Position numbers and translations under genes: made by a program. Source: a virus. From it: 11,306 nt of DNA. Position 1 is the stretch's first letter. Each line of letters begins with the position of its first letter. The stretch lies in UHGV virus genome UHGV-1326493; one strand, written 5' to 3'. Positions 1,129 through 6,247 of the stretch are shown here, piece by piece. The notes under the pieces were generated by a model, which was not told the DNA's origin, ran no database searches, and saw only the letters and a list, made by a program, of their open reading frames with translations.

Positions 1129-1475
1129 CTTTATTTGATTAATAATGCATCACTGCGGCCACGCTGCAGCGATTCCTTGTATCTGGAGCAAATTAAATGA
1201 CAGATATTATAAATAGGAATTGTTATTTAATAATATTTGAAAATGAAAATCATGGACGATAGGAATAAAAGTAGTACTTGTTATTTTTAAGTGACGCATT
1301 AAACGCATAAAGCATATGTCTGTTGATCAAGATTCTTGCTTGTTGTAAAATAATTGTTTTGTTCATGTTGCATAGTTTTAAAGTGAATAGAAGATTATTT
1401 TTCAAAACAATTGCATCTTTGTCTGCAGTCATTCCGTTTTCTTCAATATCTAAATTTTCAAACAGGATGACTAAT

Positions 1476-4208
1476 ATGCCTGATATAACTCCAAATGTTG
1501 TAATTGGGATGCCTTCTCAACTCTTCACTATGGCTCGTTCTTTTAAAGCCGTAGCTAATGGCAAAATTTATATCGGTAAAATTGACACTGACCCTGTAAA
1601 TCCTGAAAACCAGATTCAGGTTTATGTAGAGAATGAAGATGGTTCTCACGTTCCTGTTTCGCAACCAATCGTTATCAATGCTGCTGGATATCCTGTATAT
1701 AACGGACAGATTGCTAAATTCGTTACTGTGAAAGGACACTCTATGGCTGTGTACGATGCTTATGGTACGCAGCAGTTCTATTTTCCGAATGTGCTGAAGT
1801 ATGACCCGGATCAGTTACGGCAGCAATTAGAAGATCCTGATGGTGCTAAAAAATACCCTGAATTACAGATTGCACGATGGCGGGATGATAAAGACGTTCG
1901 CGGGTGGGGGGCGGATGACTCTGGGAATAGAGATTCAACACAGGCTTTTCTTGACGCCGCATCTAGCGCAGGAAATAGTGGTTTGGTTCATGTGCCTTCT
2001 GGTGAGTTTATAGTTGATGCATCGAAAATAGATATTTCACGCTTCTCCGGTGATGGTGTTCTAATCAGTAATGGTGTTCGCATTTCTGTTAATCCGCCGA
2101 TGCAAAGTTTCTCCATTGGACAAAGAAAACTTGCGACCCTGAATTTTGGTGATGATATCAATGCGCCAACTATATATGCGAATGCACAAAATGCATTGCA
2201 GGGAATAGCTTGTGTAAGGCATGAAGGTATTGAGAAGGTTTTTATCACTCAACAGGTTGGAGGTTCTAACTGGGGAACGGACACCCTCACAAGGATCAGT
2301 GAGTGGCACTATACAAGCGATGGTTCGACCCTTTCTGTTGTGACATTTACAGAGCCATTGCCTCTTGGTCACGGTTCAGATCTTTCTGCCACAATAGAGA
2401 ACGGTGAACTATATCTGTTTACAACAACAATTGCTGAGACTGGTTCCTCTCTAGGAGGGAAGGGGTATTCAAAGACAAAATGGAAAGGGGCATCAACATC
2501 TGCTGAAGATATAACTCATTACCGAGTATTTGGTGAGCCGGGTGATAATAATCTGATTAACCTTGCGCAGCGGGCAAGTATTTGTGTATCTAATGATGGG
2601 CGATATGTCATATTAATTGCGACATCAAACGCTGGGACTGGCCGCTTTTTATACGTATATGATCGCAAAGAAGTGGAATCTTCTTCTAACCCAATGAAAG
2701 TTAGACCGATTAATGGTCCTGTTCCACTTGTCCGTGGTAAAGGTCAGTATGGTGCAACGCTTCAGGGTATTACATCAGATAGCAGATATATTTACACAAT
2801 TTGGGGTGGCGTTCCTGCAAGATGCGTAAGGACAGTCCAGATTTATGATATGGGTGGTACGCTAATACGTTCGTTTCCTGTATCACTTGCCGCATCACTT
2901 TATACAGAGACTCAGTTAAATGGTTCTGACTCTAAAATCGGAGTTCCGGTTAGCTTTGAGCCTGAAGGGCTGGCAATAAGAGGTGATGAACTTGTCTGTG
3001 GTGCTATGGATGTATGGAAAAGCGCAGGGGATGTTGTAAGCCATCGTGGTAAAAATTGGGTAAGTACTGTTACTGGTGATAACAAGGGAAATCTTCCGAC
3101 AAACAGGTCTTATTGGTTAAAAACATCGCTTGCAGCGACAAATGGTGAATGGGATTCAGGTGCAACATATAAATCAGGCGATTATACTCGCAGAAATAAG
3201 CATCTGTTTGGAGTAGCAAACCTGTCTGATATTCTTGGCAACCATCCAGTGCATGGCGCAGAATCCGATCCGTATACCGGAACCGCGTATCAATATTATG
3301 CTGGAACTGATATCGCCTTTAACCGTGAGCACGGTTCATTTACTATTGCGATATTTGACGAAGCCATTGGAGAGTATACCAAATCCCTCGAGTTGAATTA
3401 TGGAAATAACCTTAACCTGTTTGATACAGATTACGGCCATGACAATAATTCATGGGTAAGTACGAAAGCAGTATTCGACTCAAACTTTCGAGGTATGCAG
3501 TTCCGTTCTAAAGATGGCAATACTGCGGGTGGTGCTTATATTGATATCCATGCTGCTGATTGTCCATCTGCGGCTGGTGAGTTGATACTTGCCTCTACAG
3601 ATGGAGGTGTCGTCAGACTTAAGCAGGGGAATGTAACAGTATTTTCTGCGACTAAAGATACTACATCGACATGGGCGACGACGACATTAAGGCCAACAAC
3701 TGATAACCAGGTATCACTTGGAAGGTCCGTTAACCGCTTTTCTCAGGTCTACGCAGGGACTGCAACTATAAATACATCTGATGCAACAGAGAAAACGGAA
3801 GTCAGAACTCTTTCCGATAAAGAGCAGGCGGTTGGGTTAGCTCTTGTTGATGAAATTGGTTTTTATCAATGGCTTGATAGTGTAAAAAATAAGGGAGCTG
3901 ATGCCAGACTTCATGCCGGACTTACGGTGCAACGGGCAATGGAAATATTCAGAGAGAATGGACTTGATCCATTTAAATACGGAGCGATCTGCTATGACAG
4001 ATGGGATGCATATACAGATACAGATCCTGCTGTTTATGATGATGAAGGTAACCTTGTTCGTGAGGCTATAACTATTACGCATGAAGCAGGAGAACGCTAT
4101 GCATTCAGAAACGATGAATTACAGTATCTAATGATTGCTGCATTAGGTATACGTCAGAAAAATATTATAAAGAGGATTGAAGAACTGGAAAATAAGTTAA
4201 AAAATTAA
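1476..4208 (+). CDS. tailspike protein: P22-type head-binding N-terminal domain, distinct receptor-binding body, C-terminal intramolecular-chaperone-like domain
   Basis: N-terminus [59 protein letters not shown]...[10 protein letters not shown]...NVLKYDPDQ parallels P22 gp9 (MTDITANVVV...[38 protein letters not shown]...). Start chosen at ATG 1476, with AGGA 8 nt upstream and alignment to gp9 Met1; ATG 1467 is an alternative. The track start at 1323 is a coincidental in-frame extension through AT-rich leader. Stop TAA 4206-4208. Confidence 0.9.
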
Positions 4209-4299
4209 CGGAGTTTAATTAGGTGGTTTGCTGGGAGGGTTGCTTATAATCCTCCACTTTTAATTTGATTGTTAGAATATTATCGCTAATAAAATTACT

Positions 4300-4605
4300 A
4301 TGCATAGTGGTATTTCTATGGACATTACACCAGTTCTTCACGCTCTTTATGCTATAGCTGCACAGACACTGTGTGGCATACTTACCGGGAACTGGGCTTA
4401 CGGGGCGATAGCCGGTTGTGCGTTCTTCATTGCTCGTGAACATACCCAGGCAGAATATCGCTGGATTGAAATGTTCGGGCATGGCAAGCGTATGAATATG
4501 CCGTGGTGGGGAGGGTTTGATCCACGCGTGTGGGATGTGGGAAGTCTGTTGGATTTTTCTTTCCCAATTATCGGATGCTTATTGGTATGGATTCTTGCAT
4601 CGTAG
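4300..4605 (+). CDS. hypothetical small membrane protein (about 95-101 aa, 2-3 predicted hydrophobic helices)
   Basis: ORF reads ...MDITPVLHALYAIAAQTLCGILTGNWAYGAIAGCAFFIAREHTQAEYRWIEMFGHGKRMNMPWWGGFDPRVWDVGSLLDFSFPIIGCLLVWILAS, with hydrophobic stretches at both ends. No convincing SD for ATG 4300 or ATG 4318. A TATAAT hexamer lies at 4245-4250. Sits between the tailspike and sib/attP. Confidence 0.45.
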   Translation: MHSGISMDITPVLHALYAIAAQTLCGILTGNWAYGAIAGCAFFIAREHTQAEYRWIEMFGHGKRMNMPWWGGFDPRVWDVGSLLDFSFPIIGCLLVWILAS

Positions 4606-4703
4606 CGAACACATAATTACCGATGAAACAAAACTGAGGCACACAAAGCTTTGCACTGGATTGCAAGGTTTTGTGCTTCTCTGGAGTGCGACATTTTTTC
4701 ATG

Positions 4704-4747
4704 ACAAAAAATTAGCGCAAGAAGACAATAAATCACCTTGCGCTAAT
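4704..4747 (-). terminator. lambda-type tI terminator within the sib retroregulator region, for the leftward int transcript
   Basis: Minus strand reads GCATTAGCGCAAGGTGATTTATTGTCTTCTTGCGCTAATTTTTTG, i.e. ATTAGCGCAAG...CTTGCGCTAAT stem plus T-run, close to the lambda tI sequence as I recall it. Extended dyad symmetry continues leftward to about 4640. Confidence 0.7.
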
Positions 4748-4750
4748 GCT

Positions 4751-4992
4751 CTGTTACAGGTCACTAATACCATCTAAGTAGTTGATTCATAGTGACTGCA
4801 CATGCTGTGTTTTGCAGTATTATGTAGTCTATTATTTAGACCAAAACCATCATAACACATTGATATTGATGATTTTTCTTGTTTCTCATTCAGCTTTTTT
4901 ATACTAAGTTGGCCTTATAAAAAAGCATTGCTTATCAATTTGTTGCAACGAACAGGTCACTATCAGTCAAAATAAAATCATTATTTGATTTC
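4751..4992. other. attP: complete lambda-type attP (P arm, 15-bp core, P' arm)
   Basis: Core GCTTTTTTATACTAA at 4893-4907 flanked by CA...GTTGG as in lambda attP. Arm-type Int sites are present: P arm CTGTTACAGGTCACTAATAC and TTCATAGTGACTGCA (4751-4800), P' arm ACAGGTCACTATCAGTCAAAATAAAATCATTAT (4952-4984). The P' arm overlaps the 3' end of int, as in lambda. Confidence 0.85.
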
Positions 4993-6051
4993 AATTTTGT
5001 CCCACTCCCTGCCTCTGTCATCACGATACTGTGATGCCATGGTGTCCGACTTATGCCCGAGAAGATGTTGAGCAAATTTATCGCTTATCTGCTTCTCATA
5101 GAGTCTTGCAGACAAACTGCGCAACTCGTGAAAGGTTGGCGGATCCCCTTCGAAGGAAAGACCTGATGCTTTTCGTGCGCGCATAAAATACCTTGATACT
5201 GTGCCGGATGAAAGCGGTTCACGACGAGTAGATGCAATTATGGTTTCTCCGCCAAGAATCTCTTTGCATTTACCAAGTGTTTCCTTCATTGATATCCCGA
5301 GAGCATCAACATGCAATGTTGTAGGGATGGCAATTTTTACGCCTGTTTTGCTTTGCTCGACATAAAGATATCCATCTACGATATCAGACCACTTCATTTC
5401 GCATAAATCACCAACTCTCTGCCCGGTAACAACAGCCAGTTCCATTGCAAGTCTGAGCCAACATGGTGATGATTCTGCTGCTTGATAAATTTTCAGGTAT
5501 TCGTCAGCCGTAAGTCTTGATCTCCTTACCTCTGATTTTGCTGCGCGAGTGGCAGCGACCGGGTTTGTTGTTATATGGCCTTCAGCTATTGCCTCTCGGA
5601 ATGCATCGCTCAGTGTTGATCTGATTAACTTGGCTGACGCCGCCTTGCCCTCGTCTATGTATCCATTGAGCATTGCTGCAATTTCTTTTGTGGTGATGTC
5701 TTCAAGTGGAGCATCAGGCAGACCCCTCCTTATTGCTTTAATTTTGCTCATGTAATTTATGAGTGTCTTCTGCTTGATTCCTCTGTTGGCGAGGATTTTT
5801 TCGTAGCGATCAAGCCATGAATGTAACGTAACAGAATTATCACTGTTGATTCTCGCTGTCAGAGGCTTGTGTTTGTGTCCTGAAAATAACTCAATGTTGG
5901 CCTGTATAGCTTCAGTGATTGCTATCCTCCTGTCTCGGCCTAATCCAAACTCTTTACCCGTCCTTGGGTCCCTGTAGCAGTAATATCCATTGTTTCTTAT
6001 ATAAAGATTAGGGGGTAAATCCCGGTGCTCATGACTTCGCCTTCTTCCCAT
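4981..6051 (-). CDS. int: tyrosine integrase, lambda Int type, 356 aa
   Basis: MGRRRSHEHRDLPPNLYIRNNGYYCYRDPRTGKEFGLGRDRRIAITEAIQANIELF...HELRSLSARLYEKQISDKFAQHLLGHKSDTMASQYRDDRGREWDKIEIK is near-identical to lambda Int as I recall it. R-x-x-R, H-x-x-R, H and the Y in ...MASQYRDD are intact. Overlaps xis by 23 nt. Confidence 0.97.
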   Translation of the reverse strand: MGRRRSHEHRDLPPNLYIRNNGYYCYRDPRTGKEFGLGRDRRIAITEAIQANIELFSGHKHKPLTARINSDNSVTLHSWLDRYEKILANRGIKQKTLINYMSKIKAIRRGLPDAPLEDITTKEIAAMLNGYIDEGKAASAKLIRSTLSDAFREAIAEGHITTNPVAATRAAKSEVRRSRLTADEYLKIYQAAESSPCWLRLAMELAVVTGQRVGDLCEMKWSDIVDGYLYVEQSKTGVKIAIPTTLHVDALGISMKETLGKCKEILGGETIIASTRREPLSSGTVSRYFMRARKASGLSFEGDPPTFHELRSLSARLYEKQISDKFAQHLLGHKSDTMASQYRDDRGREWDKIEIK

Positions 6052-6247
6052 TTTTGATCCTCTTCAAAAGGCTACCTGTTACTGGTCGATTTAAGTCAAC
6101 CTTTACCGCTGATTCGTGGAACAGATACTCTCTTCCATCCTTAACCGGAGGAGGGAATATCCTGCACTCGCGTACCCATCGACGAACTGTTTCAAGGCTT
6201 CTTGGGCGTCGCTGGCGTGCGTTCCACTCCTGAAGTGTCAAGTACAT
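6029..6247 (-). CDS. xis: excisionase, lambda Xis type, 72 aa
   Basis: MYLTLQEWNARQRRPRSLETVRRWVRECRIFPPPVKDGREYLFHESAVKVDLNRP...KKAKS matches lambda Xis. Has the characteristic overlap with the int start. Confidence 0.95.
   Translation of the reverse strand: MYLTLQEWNARQRRPRSLETVRRWVRECRIFPPPVKDGREYLFHESAVKVDLNRPVTGSLLKRIKNGKKAKS

What the first reader, a model, noticed from the sequence alone, without database searches (positions are those of the whole stretch)
4209..4610. Small membrane-protein ORF between tailspike and sib/attP: candidate lysogenic-conversion or exclusion gene
This is the position where P22-like and Shigella phages carry O-antigen-modifying or exclusion genes (gtr, oac), immediately beside attP. 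The ORF encodes about 100 aa with hydrophobic segments at both ends and a polar middle (REHTQAEYRWIEMFGHGKRMNMPWWGGFDPRVWD). It is too small to be a Gtr glycosyltransferase and does not resemble GtrA as I recall it. It lacks a clear SD, so it may be expressed from the TATAAT at 4245-4250 or not at all.
Basis: partly seen in the sequence, partly recalled or inferred. Interest (0 to 1): 0.55.

Follow-up and report, generated by a model that had tools for sequence, protein, structure and literature searches.

The report
Conserved small membrane gene behind tailspike
This is a real, intact gene for a 95-residue three-helix membrane protein from a very widespread but unstudied family that sits directly behind the receptor-binding (tailspike or tail-fibre) genes of many phages; its function is unknown and nothing links it to O-antigen modification.

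Summary
The ORF is real: window 4300-4605 (+), most likely starting at ATG 4318 (95 aa). It is not a fragment. It matches PHROG 1443 (unknown function) over its full length. It has no Pfam, NCBIfam or PADLOC hit and no structural homologue, and dN/dS is 0.15-0.19. AlphaFold gives a confident three-helix protein (pLDDT 96) with a nearly invariant Arg/Glu/Trp-rich segment between helices 2 and 3.

The family occurs in 35% of complete E. coli genomes and in at least 594 IMG/VR contigs. It spans alpha-, beta-, gamma- and delta-proteobacteria, including stable non-phage chromosomal copies.

In phages of all three tail types the gene lies directly downstream of the last receptor-binding-protein gene on the same strand. 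It is often translationally coupled to that gene. In P22-like phages it forms the conserved right flank of the exchangeable tailspike module.

"Accessory membrane-protein gene in the cargo position" is supported. "O-antigen conversion" is not. An exclusion role stays possible but untested. My best guess, at low confidence, is a late co-expressed envelope-acting protein.

The parts
4318..4605 (+). Coding sequence of the 95-aa three-helix membrane protein (PHROG 1443 / UniRef 'Ybl63'-type family). Stop codon TAG at 4603-4605.
4300..4317 (+). Possible 6-codon N-terminal extension (MHSGIS) if ATG 4300 is used. No SD precedes it, and it is not conserved in relatives.
4307..4311 (+). Weak Shine-Dalgarno-like GTGGT, 6 nt upstream of ATG 4318. 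Relatives have AAGGAGG, AGGA or GGAGG, or a stop/start overlap.
   Evidence: Sequence; junctions.
4234..4265 (+). Terminator-like hairpin (9-bp stem, 4-nt loop) plus T-rich tail between the tailspike stop and the ORF.
   Evidence: Analogous hairpins occur in L095 and L123.
1476..4208 (+). Tailspike gene. It has a P22 Head_binding N-terminal domain and a C-terminal Peptidase_S74 intramolecular-chaperone domain. Start is ATG 1476 or 1467.
4638..4950 (.). Lambda-homologous sib/tI-attP segment. It contains a 14-bp hairpin at 4642-4675 (37 nt after the ORF stop) and a terminator-like site at 4671-4691. The attP core GCTTTTTTATACTAA lies at 4893-4907.
4981..6051 (-). Lambda-type integrase (356 aa), convergent with the ORF. 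Xis follows at 6029-6247 (-).

Best explanation
Shown. Window 4318-4605 encodes a 95-aa inner-membrane protein of three helices. It belongs to a large, unannotated, stand-alone family found both in proteobacterial chromosomes and in phages. In phages it is the last gene of the receptor-binding-protein (RBP) module, on the same strand as the tailspike or tail-fibre gene. In P22-like phages it is the conserved right-hand flank between which tailspike receptor-binding parts are exchanged.

Inferred. It is made together with the tailspike late in infection. Most relatives achieve this by translational coupling. In this window it would need read-through of the weak hairpin at 4234-4255 by antiterminated late transcription. 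The protein would act through the nearly invariant Arg/Glu/Gln/Trp/Asp-rich cap between helices 2 and 3, together with His14 of helix 1, at the membrane surface, most likely on the periplasmic side. That cap would bind a component of the envelope conserved across Proteobacteria.

The biological effect I think most likely is to make the envelope of the infected or lysogenic cell unproductive for phage particles, either superinfecting phages or re-adsorbing progeny. I do not think it changes O-antigen chemistry.
For: Real gene under purifying selection.

Confident three-helix model (pLDDT 95.9, pTM 0.81; helices 4-23, 26-53, 74-94).

Invariant core even in the most divergent members (H8, R40, E41, Q44, A45, E46, R48, I50, R58, P62, W63, W72, D79, P83 in 95-aa numbering).

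RBP linkage in P22-like, epsilon15-like, lambda-like, P2-like and P1-like phages and a jumbo phage, in Escherichia, Klebsiella, Leclercia, Enterobacter, Aeromonas, Comamonas and Desulfovibrio.

Stop/start overlaps or gaps of 18 nt or less with good SDs.

In nine P22-like phages, DNA homology to the window is confined to the head-binding part of the tailspike and to the ORF, starting exactly at 4318 in five of them.

Compositional island: ORF GC 49% and GC3 47%, against tailspike 42.5% and 31%, with flanks at 33-35%.

Basic C-terminal tails in many members fit a C-in topology.

From established knowledge, lambda Q and P22 gp23 late transcription reads through terminators. RBP-adjacent genes such as T5 llp, phi80/N15 cor and P2 Z/fun are known exclusion functions.
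Against: No experiment or homology connects the family to exclusion. PADLOC gives no hit. P22 SieA is unrelated.

Known exclusion proteins are variable and narrow in range; SieA types are under 30% identical (PMC10883804). This family keeps about 80% identity in its cap from alphaproteobacteria to E. coli phages.

The family has syntenic, non-prophage chromosomal copies in Aeromonas and Leclercia (syntenic across species) and in sphingomonads (next to housekeeping genes such as ligA). That fits a housekeeping-type ligand-binding or enzymatic role better.

Expression timing is inferred only. Topology by charge counts is ambiguous, because the helix 2-3 loop itself carries about 5 Lys/Arg. In this window the SD is weak and a hairpin precedes the gene, so expression could be low.
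Confidence: 0.3

Rival explanations
1. Host-physiology cargo. The protein is a tiny ligand-binding or enzymatic membrane protein, or a subunit of a host complex, captured from bacterial chromosomes. Its benefit to the lysogen has nothing to do with phage-phage conflict. It sits at the end of the late operon only because that is a safe place for cargo.
For: Stable chromosomal copies lie beside housekeeping genes such as ligA, pirin and peptidases in sphingomonads, Aeromonas and Leclercia. The polar and aromatic residues are extremely conserved across proteobacterial classes. The gene lies next to other cargo: sitABCD, umuDC-like genes, AbiTii and gtrABC. In 27 of 79 IMG/VR prophage predictions it is the last gene before the prophage end. 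Its GC content differs from its neighbours.
Against: Cargo is usually scattered among sites and carries its own promoter. This gene is glued to the RBP gene, often by overlapping stop and start codons, in six phage architectures and also in a 236-kb Aeromonas jumbo phage. Up to 7 copies occur per E. coli genome, which argues against a dosage-limited host function.
Confidence: 0.25
2. Lysis-related membrane protein. It would be a holin, antiholin or lysis-timing factor made with the last late genes.
For: It is about 95-105 aa with three helices, and many members have a basic C-terminus, as in class I holins. Late co-expression is inferred. It lies directly beside holin or endolysin genes in four unrelated phages. 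In phiv142-3 the order is fibre, ORF, holin-like protein, holin, endolysin. In a Comamonas prophage the ORF is followed by two membrane proteins and an SLT-like protein. In an Aeromonas phage it follows an SLT-like protein and a membrane protein. In a P1-like plasmid it precedes LydA-like and LydB genes.
Against: No Pfam or PHROG holin hit. hhalign against lambda S, with the sequence recalled from memory, gives probability 0.5%. MKM-type dual starts are rare in the family. In lambda- and P22-like phages, P22 itself being the example, the complete lysis cassette lies far away at the start of the late operon (general knowledge), and the ORF stays with the RBP gene instead. A strongly conserved polar loop is untypical of holins. 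Stable chromosomal orthologues outside prophages would be hazardous if the protein were lethal.
Confidence: 0.15
3. One reading: a lysogenic-conversion gene that modifies or shortens the O-antigen or LPS, for instance by inhibiting a polymerase in the way D3 or epsilon15 Iap does.
For: It lies between the tailspike and attP, where P22-like phages keep gtr and oac genes. In phage 611R6 an OafA O-acetylase lies between the tailspike gene and the ORF, separated from the ORF by an attP-arm relic and a tail-fibre fragment. Many upstream RBPs are glycan depolymerases with pectate-lyase or endosialidase-type domains.
Against: There is no similarity to GtrA, Gtr enzymes or acyltransferases. It co-exists with gtrABC. 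The protein is the same behind unrelated tailspikes and behind lambda J and Stf-type fibres. It is present in sphingomonads, which lack O-antigen LPS (general knowledge). Its orientation is that of the late operon rather than of a prophage-expressed unit. The Kapi1 test of a gene 'between tailspike and integrase' does not apply: that gene is a 34-aa minus-strand ORF of another family.
Confidence: 0.07
4. Passenger. The DNA persists mainly as the conserved right-hand homology arm for swapping RBP modules, and the protein contributes little in this phage.
For: Homology between the window and nine P22-like phages is limited to the head-binding domain and the ORF, with junctions exactly at the start codon. 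This window has a weak SD and a hairpin upstream.
Against: dN/dS of 0.15-0.19 and intact reading frames in every locus examined. Protein-level conservation extends across classes where DNA homology is long gone.
Confidence: 0.1

Closest known systems
P22 SieA (superinfection exclusion, inner membrane)
   Same: A small integral inner-membrane protein with three predicted transmembrane helices, encoded by P22-like phages near the tailspike region. It acts alone (PMC10883804).
   Different: SieA is 162-164 aa and lies on the opposite strand with its own promoter. Its three types are under 30% identical. Its conserved motif FxRYPxEAxxFNK is absent here. hhalign probability is 0.1%. It is not a homologue.
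RBP-adjacent exclusion genes (T5 llp, phi80/N15/HK022 cor, P2 Z/fun)
   Same: Accessory genes placed next to the receptor-binding gene that protect the infected or lysogenic cell. This is recalled from the literature and was not tested here.
   Different: Llp and Cor are outer-membrane lipoproteins that block one receptor, FhuA. This protein has no lipobox, has three helices, and stays the same behind RBPs of many specificities.
Class I holins (lambda S105, P22 gp13)
   Same: About 100 aa, three helices, a basic C-terminus in many members, and late expression. In some phages the ORF is adjacent to lysis genes.
   Different: No sequence or profile similarity. The ORF is not in the lysis cassette of lambda- or P22-like phages. 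It has a conserved polar cap and non-phage chromosomal orthologues.
GtrA / gtrABC and Oac O-antigen conversion cassettes
   Same: The same region of the genome in P22-like phages (tailspike to attP), and a membrane location.
   Different: GtrA is a 120-aa, four-helix protein of Pfam PF04138. There is no hit here. The ORF co-exists with gtrABC in L087. Its strand is opposite to that of P22 gtrABC.
PHROG 1443 / UniRef 'Ybl63' hypothetical proteins (e.g. phage 21 CPT_21_24 'putative membrane protein')
   Same: The same family, with a full-length match at 75-90% identity. The same position after the last tail-fibre gene.
   Different: Nothing apart from the neighbouring tailspike type. No member has a known function.

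Membership tests
PHROG 1443 / 'Ybl63'-type small membrane protein family (uncharacterised) | Full-length profile match | tested here: met
   E 2.4e-51, residues 7-100 against profile positions 1-94 of 97. 616 and 1865 homologue clusters.
PHROG 1443 / 'Ybl63'-type small membrane protein family (uncharacterised) | Signature H(helix 1) ... RE-x-TQAEYRWI ... G-x-R-x-NMPWWGGFD-x-R-x-W ... D-x(3)-P | tested here: met
   All positions are present in the window protein.
PHROG 1443 / 'Ybl63'-type small membrane protein family (uncharacterised) | Stand-alone protein of about 95-105 aa with three helices | tested here: met
   AF2 model. All 150 best representatives are 63-146 aa.
GtrA-like flippase (PF04138) | Pfam GtrA_DPMS_TM match; four helices; about 120 aa | tested here: not met
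   No Pfam hit at E<=10. hhalign against P22 GtrA gives probability 0.4%. The model has three helices.
O-antigen acyltransferase / glucosyltransferase (Oac, GtrB, GtrC) | Acyl_transf_3, Glycos_transf_2 or Glucos_trans_II domains; more than 300 aa | tested here: not met
   95 aa with no Pfam hit. These domains lie in separate genes in L087 and L002.
P22 SieA-type exclusion protein | Sequence similarity to SieA types A-C and the motif FxRYPxEAxxFNK | tested here: not met
   hhalign probability 0.1%. The motif is absent from the sequence. The motif is taken from PMC10883804.
P22 SieA-type exclusion protein | Blocks DNA injection when expressed alone | not testable with these tools
   Needs plating and K+ efflux assays.
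Holins (class I and Pfam/PHROG holin families) | Match to a holin family profile | tested here: not met
   No Pfam hit. The only PHROG hits are families of unknown function. Lambda S hhalign probability 0.5%.
Holins (class I and Pfam/PHROG holin families) | Gene located in a lysis cassette next to the endolysin | tested here: not met
   Not so in this window (tailspike, ORF, attP). True only in some relatives.
Holins (class I and Pfam/PHROG holin families) | Three transmembrane helices, N-out/C-in | tested here: inconclusive
   Three helices are predicted. Charge distribution is ambiguous. No topology predictor was available.
Holins (class I and Pfam/PHROG holin families) | Lethal membrane permeabilisation on expression | not testable with these tools
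   Experimental.
Moron (Hendrix sense: autonomous cargo unit) | Base composition different from neighbours | tested here: met
   GC 49% against 33-42.5%; GC3 47% against 31%.
Moron (Hendrix sense: autonomous cargo unit) | Own promoter upstream and terminator downstream | tested here: inconclusive
   A downstream hairpin is present (4642-4691). No promoter match lies between 4256 and 4317. Most relatives have no room for a promoter. L095 and L123 show only chance-level matches.
Known anti-phage defence proteins (PADLOC-DB v2) | Profile match | tested here: not met
   0 families at E<=10.

The most novel reading that the evidence does not exclude
The family is a previously unrecognised small membrane enzyme or carrier-lipid/glycan-binding protein shared by phages and hosts. 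Phages of every tail type keep it welded to their receptor-binding genes. It would define a generic, receptor-independent way of making the envelope refractory to phage particles, or of controlling envelope precursors late in infection. It would be present in a third of E. coli genomes.
Probability: 0.12. Interest if true: 0.7.

Novelty: new member of a known kind. Interest (0 to 1): 0.42.

Why it matters
The gene is common. It occurs in 1921 of 5426 complete E. coli genomes, usually in two or more copies, and in at least 594 IMG/VR viral contigs. It forms 446 clusters at 50% identity among 1.84 billion representative proteins.

It has no Pfam family, no structural relative and no literature. 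Yet it has an almost invariant polar and aromatic motif, and a strikingly constant position behind receptor-binding genes in podo-, sipho- and myoviruses.

That combination makes it a well-defined and cheap target for experiment. A deletion and an expression plasmid would test the exclusion, lysis-timing and envelope hypotheses. It is also a practical landmark for people who engineer or predict tailspike swaps, because in P22-like phages it marks the right-hand boundary of the exchangeable module to the nucleotide.

Tried and rejected
Database and structure searches that found nothing useful:
- Pfam, NCBIfam and PADLOC on the protein.
- Pfam on 43 diverse family members.
- PDB by sequence profile: only PsaL at E 0.62.
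- afdb50 was unavailable.
- Exhaustive profile search: no fusion to any other domain.

Direct comparisons with lambda S, P22 SieA and P22 GtrA all gave probability of 0.5% or less.

Literature leads:
- No paper mentions phrog_1443, WP_000355360 or Ybl63 in this sense.
- GiPD474 (PMC12724215) is an ATPase and is unrelated.
- Kapi1 'hyp24 between tail spike and integrase' (PMC8787464) looked like a direct test. It is a 34-aa minus-strand ORF of another family, and Kapi1 lacks this gene.
- A search for the ECOR PhiR phage paper found nothing useful.

Ideas dropped:
- The dual-start (MKM) holin motif is rare in the family.
- RBP swapping between L175/L176 and between L177/L178: the pairs are identical.
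- The 190-aa 'fusions' P0149 and P0150 are the upstream 92-aa gene read through into the ORF, and each is a single-member cluster.
- Hits in Collinsella and Dehalococcoidia MAGs are probably binning contaminants.

Full report
THE OBSERVATION

The + strand carries an ORF at 4300-4605 (ATG, 101 aa). It lies between the tailspike gene, which stops at 4208, and the lambda-type sib/attP segment and integrase.

The better start is ATG 4318, giving MDITP... and 95 aa. Four results point to it:
- The commonest N-terminus in the family is a single Met before D-x-[TS]-P.
- NCBI annotates exactly this 95-aa protein in E. coli.
- DNA homology with five other P22-like phages begins exactly at 4318.
- GTGGT at 4307-4311 is a weak Shine-Dalgarno, whereas ATG 4300 has none.

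The TATAAT at 4245-4250 is real but sits inside a terminator-like hairpin (4234-4255, 9-bp stem) followed by ACTTTTAATT. It has no -35 partner.

IS IT A GENE?

Yes.
- It matches PHROG 1443 (function unknown) end to end at E 2e-51.
- A single-sequence search finds 616 clusters and a profile search 1865, almost all 90-110 aa and none with a Pfam domain.
- An exhaustive HMMER pass over 1.84 billion representatives finds 446 clusters at E<=0.001. All of the best 150 are 63-146 aa, so the protein is never a domain of something larger.
- Against E. coli relatives dS is 0.3-0.9 and dN/dS is 0.15-0.19.
- The frame is intact in all 77 loci first examined.

THE PROTEIN

With a 79-sequence alignment AlphaFold2 gives pLDDT 95.9 and pTM 0.81. 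The model has three helices at 4-23, 26-53 and 74-94 of the 95-aa form. Helix 2 is 28 residues long. Its first half is hydrophobic and its second half (REHTQAEYRWIEMF) is amphipathic, so it must protrude from the bilayer. It is followed by the loop GHGKRMNMPWWGGFDPRVWD.

Conservation is extreme in this cap. Even among the most divergent members the following are invariant or nearly so: His8 in helix 1, Arg40-Glu41, Gln44-Ala45-Glu46, Arg48, Ile50, Arg58, Pro62-Trp63, Trp72, Asp79 and Pro83. Those members come from Aeromonas phages, Halomonas, Desulfovibrio and sphingomonads. His42 is not conserved; it is Ile in alphaproteobacteria.

Many members end in a Lys/Arg-rich tail, which suggests C-in and therefore a periplasmic cap. 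The loop itself also carries about five Lys/Arg, so charge counts do not settle the topology. I could not run a topology predictor.

No homologue of known function or structure was found:
- Pfam, NCBIfam and PADLOC;
- PDB by sequence;

The only recurring name is photosystem-I PsaL, which is another three-helix membrane subunit. It appears at insignificant scores.

WHERE THE FAMILY LIVES

It occurs in 1921 of 5426 complete E. coli genomes, with a median of two copies and up to seven. It occurs in at least 594 IMG/VR contigs.

One-genome-per-species scanning finds it widely:
- Gammaproteobacteria: Escherichia, Leclercia, Silvania, Pantoea, Phytobacter, Aeromonas and Halomonas.
- Betaproteobacteria: Comamonas, Acidovorax and Pigmentiphaga.
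- Alphaproteobacteria: Sphingomonas, Sphingomicrobium, Sphingobium, Novosphingobium, Devosia and Chelativorans.
- Desulfovibrio.

Many of these copies are not in prophages. In Aeromonas the gene sits between pirin and RIO1-kinase genes in four genomes. Leclercia has a syntenic chromosomal copy in five genomes. Sphingomonad copies lie beside ligA, peptidases and other housekeeping genes.

A second, more divergent sub-family of 87-95 aa fills Aeromonas-type phage contigs.

POSITION IN PHAGES

Every phage context I opened has the gene immediately downstream of the last receptor-binding-protein gene, on the same strand:
- P22-like tailspikes: window, JEP4, Klebsiella L087, L093 and the IMG/VR loci.
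- An epsilon15-like fibre.
- Lambda-like stf modules: phage 21, Nissle 1917 and others.
- GpJ plus tailspike in Enterobacter and relatives.
- GpJ in Comamonas.
- A P2-like fibre in Aeromonas.
- P1-like fibres on a Leclercia phage-plasmid.
- A 236-kb Aeromonas jumbo phage, where the gene lies immediately upstream of the putative tail-fibre gene, on the same strand.

The junctions are usually stop/start overlaps (ATGA, TGATG, or 8-nt overlaps) or gaps of 18 nt or less behind AAGGAGG-type SDs. Co-translation with the RBP gene is therefore the rule.

Three P22-like contexts, including this window, instead have a hairpin terminator between the tailspike and the ORF. Promoter matches there are at chance level only.

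In P22, gtrABC and sieA lie on the opposite strand with their own promoters. This gene does not share that arrangement.

Between the window and nine other P22-like phages, DNA homology is confined to two segments. One is the head-binding part of the tailspike (1476-1830/1912, 85-90% among the seven E. coli-type phages). The other is the ORF (4318-4605/4677, 87-91% among the same seven). In the Klebsiella locus L087 and in L093 only short, weaker segments align (66-82%). The 2.4 kb between them is unrelated. The ORF is thus the conserved right flank of the exchangeable receptor-binding module. Its GC content (49%, GC3 47%) also sets it apart from the tailspike (42.5%, GC3 31%) and the AT-rich flanks.

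WHAT IT PROBABLY DOES

Nothing here is experimental, so this section is inference.

The position, the coupling to the RBP gene and the presence in a jumbo phage suggest that the product is made late, together with the tail fibres. In this window that would need read-through of the 4234-4255 hairpin. From established knowledge, lambda Q and P22 gp23-modified polymerase reads through terminators.

The invariant Arg/Glu/Gln/Trp/Asp cap looks like a binding or catalytic site for something conserved across Proteobacteria. The sequence does not change with the specificity of the adjacent RBP, so that target cannot be a particular receptor.

My best guess (0.3) is an envelope-level protective function against phage particles, either superinfecting phages or re-adsorbing progeny. 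The analogy is with other RBP-adjacent genes (llp, cor, Z/fun), recalled from the literature.

Against this, exclusion proteins are normally variable and narrow in range; SieA types are under 30% identical (PMC10883804). This family is highly conserved and has housekeeping-like chromosomal copies.

That is why I rate "host-physiology cargo with a conserved ligand" almost as high (0.25).

A lysis-related role (0.15) is suggested by the size, the three helices, the basic tails and the adjacency to holin or endolysin genes in four unrelated phages. It is weakened by the lack of any holin similarity, by the rarity of dual starts and by the fact that the gene stays with the RBP gene, not the lysis cassette, in lambda- and P22-like phages.

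O-antigen conversion (0.07) has only the map position in its favour. The gene co-exists with gtrABC, is unrelated to GtrA and occurs in sphingomonads, which lack O-antigen LPS.

A pure passenger or recombination-arm role (0.1) conflicts with the purifying selection.

COMPARISON WITH THE KNOWN, AND VERDICT

The protein is a member of PHROG 1443, the 'Ybl63' hypothetical family, and of nothing else. It resembles SieA, class I holins and GtrA only in being a small phage-borne membrane protein. Each of those memberships was tested and failed.

It is a new member of a known kind, namely phage accessory membrane genes at the end of the tail module, in a family whose function is entirely open. Interest is moderate, because the family is very common, sharply defined and easily testable.

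Noticed in passing
window 3789-4205; L009 7573-7998; L076 5503-5928; L086, L087, L175 upstream genes; L083 3069-3461; L117 4286-4987: The gene directly upstream of the family ORF very often ends in a Peptidase_S74 intramolecular-chaperone domain. I saw four different S74 subtypes in Escherichia, Klebsiella, Leclercia, Aeromonas and Desulfovibrio. About 54 of 79 IMG/VR contexts show it, though that sample is dominated by close E. coli relatives. No mechanism is known that links S74 domains to a membrane protein.
   Followed up: partly
window 1323-1475: The tailspike reading frame is open for about 50 codons upstream of the likely start. It reads ...[28 protein letters not shown]..., which resembles a twin-arginine signal. 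The same extension is open in L098 and L108, and a 31-residue extension is annotated in JEP4. It may be untranslated leader.
   Followed up: no
window 4638-6247: This P22-like (Lederbergvirus-type) phage has Mnt and a Head_binding tailspike but carries a lambda-type integration module. That module comprises the sib/tI hairpin, attP core GCTTTTTTATACTAA at 4893-4907, a 356-aa Int with a lambda arm-binding domain, and lambda-type Xis.
   Followed up: partly
L002 (phage vB_EcoP-611R6) about 4990-5110: A relic of the lambda attP P-arm (ttgacaaaaaattagcgcaagaagacaa...ctaagtagttgattcatagtgactgg) lies between the OafA acetylase gene and a 37-aa tail-fibre C-terminal fragment. It is upstream of the family ORF, although this phage integrates at argW with a CPS-53-type integrase. 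This looks like a scar of module exchange.
   Followed up: no
L006 8970-9521; L004 2499-2996: PHROG 3108 is listed as 'unknown function' and has no Pfam hit. Its members carry motifs typical of soluble lytic transglycosylases (GLQESR..., GFWQFE) and sit among membrane proteins next to the family ORF. It is probably an unannotated endolysin family.
   Followed up: no
L003 4710-4988; L010 5710-5988; L011 4627-4908: A 92-93-aa acidic protein (PHROG 1361, unknown function) always follows the lambda-type stf gene. It precedes either the family ORF or a short S74-ending fibre protein. In two metagenomic contigs it is fused in frame to the family ORF (P0149, P0150).
   Followed up: no
IMG/VR loci L094-L173: In 27 of 79 predicted prophages the family ORF ends within a few bases of the contig end. 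It is therefore frequently the outermost prophage gene on the tail side, as also seen next to torT (L011) and ssrA/smpB (L088).
   Followed up: partly
L014 (Collinsella MAG), L078 (Dehalococcoidia MAG): Family members turn up in bins of Gram-positive or Chloroflexi lineages, on short contigs. One is 82% identical to the E. coli type. This is most likely binning contamination rather than true distribution.
   Followed up: no
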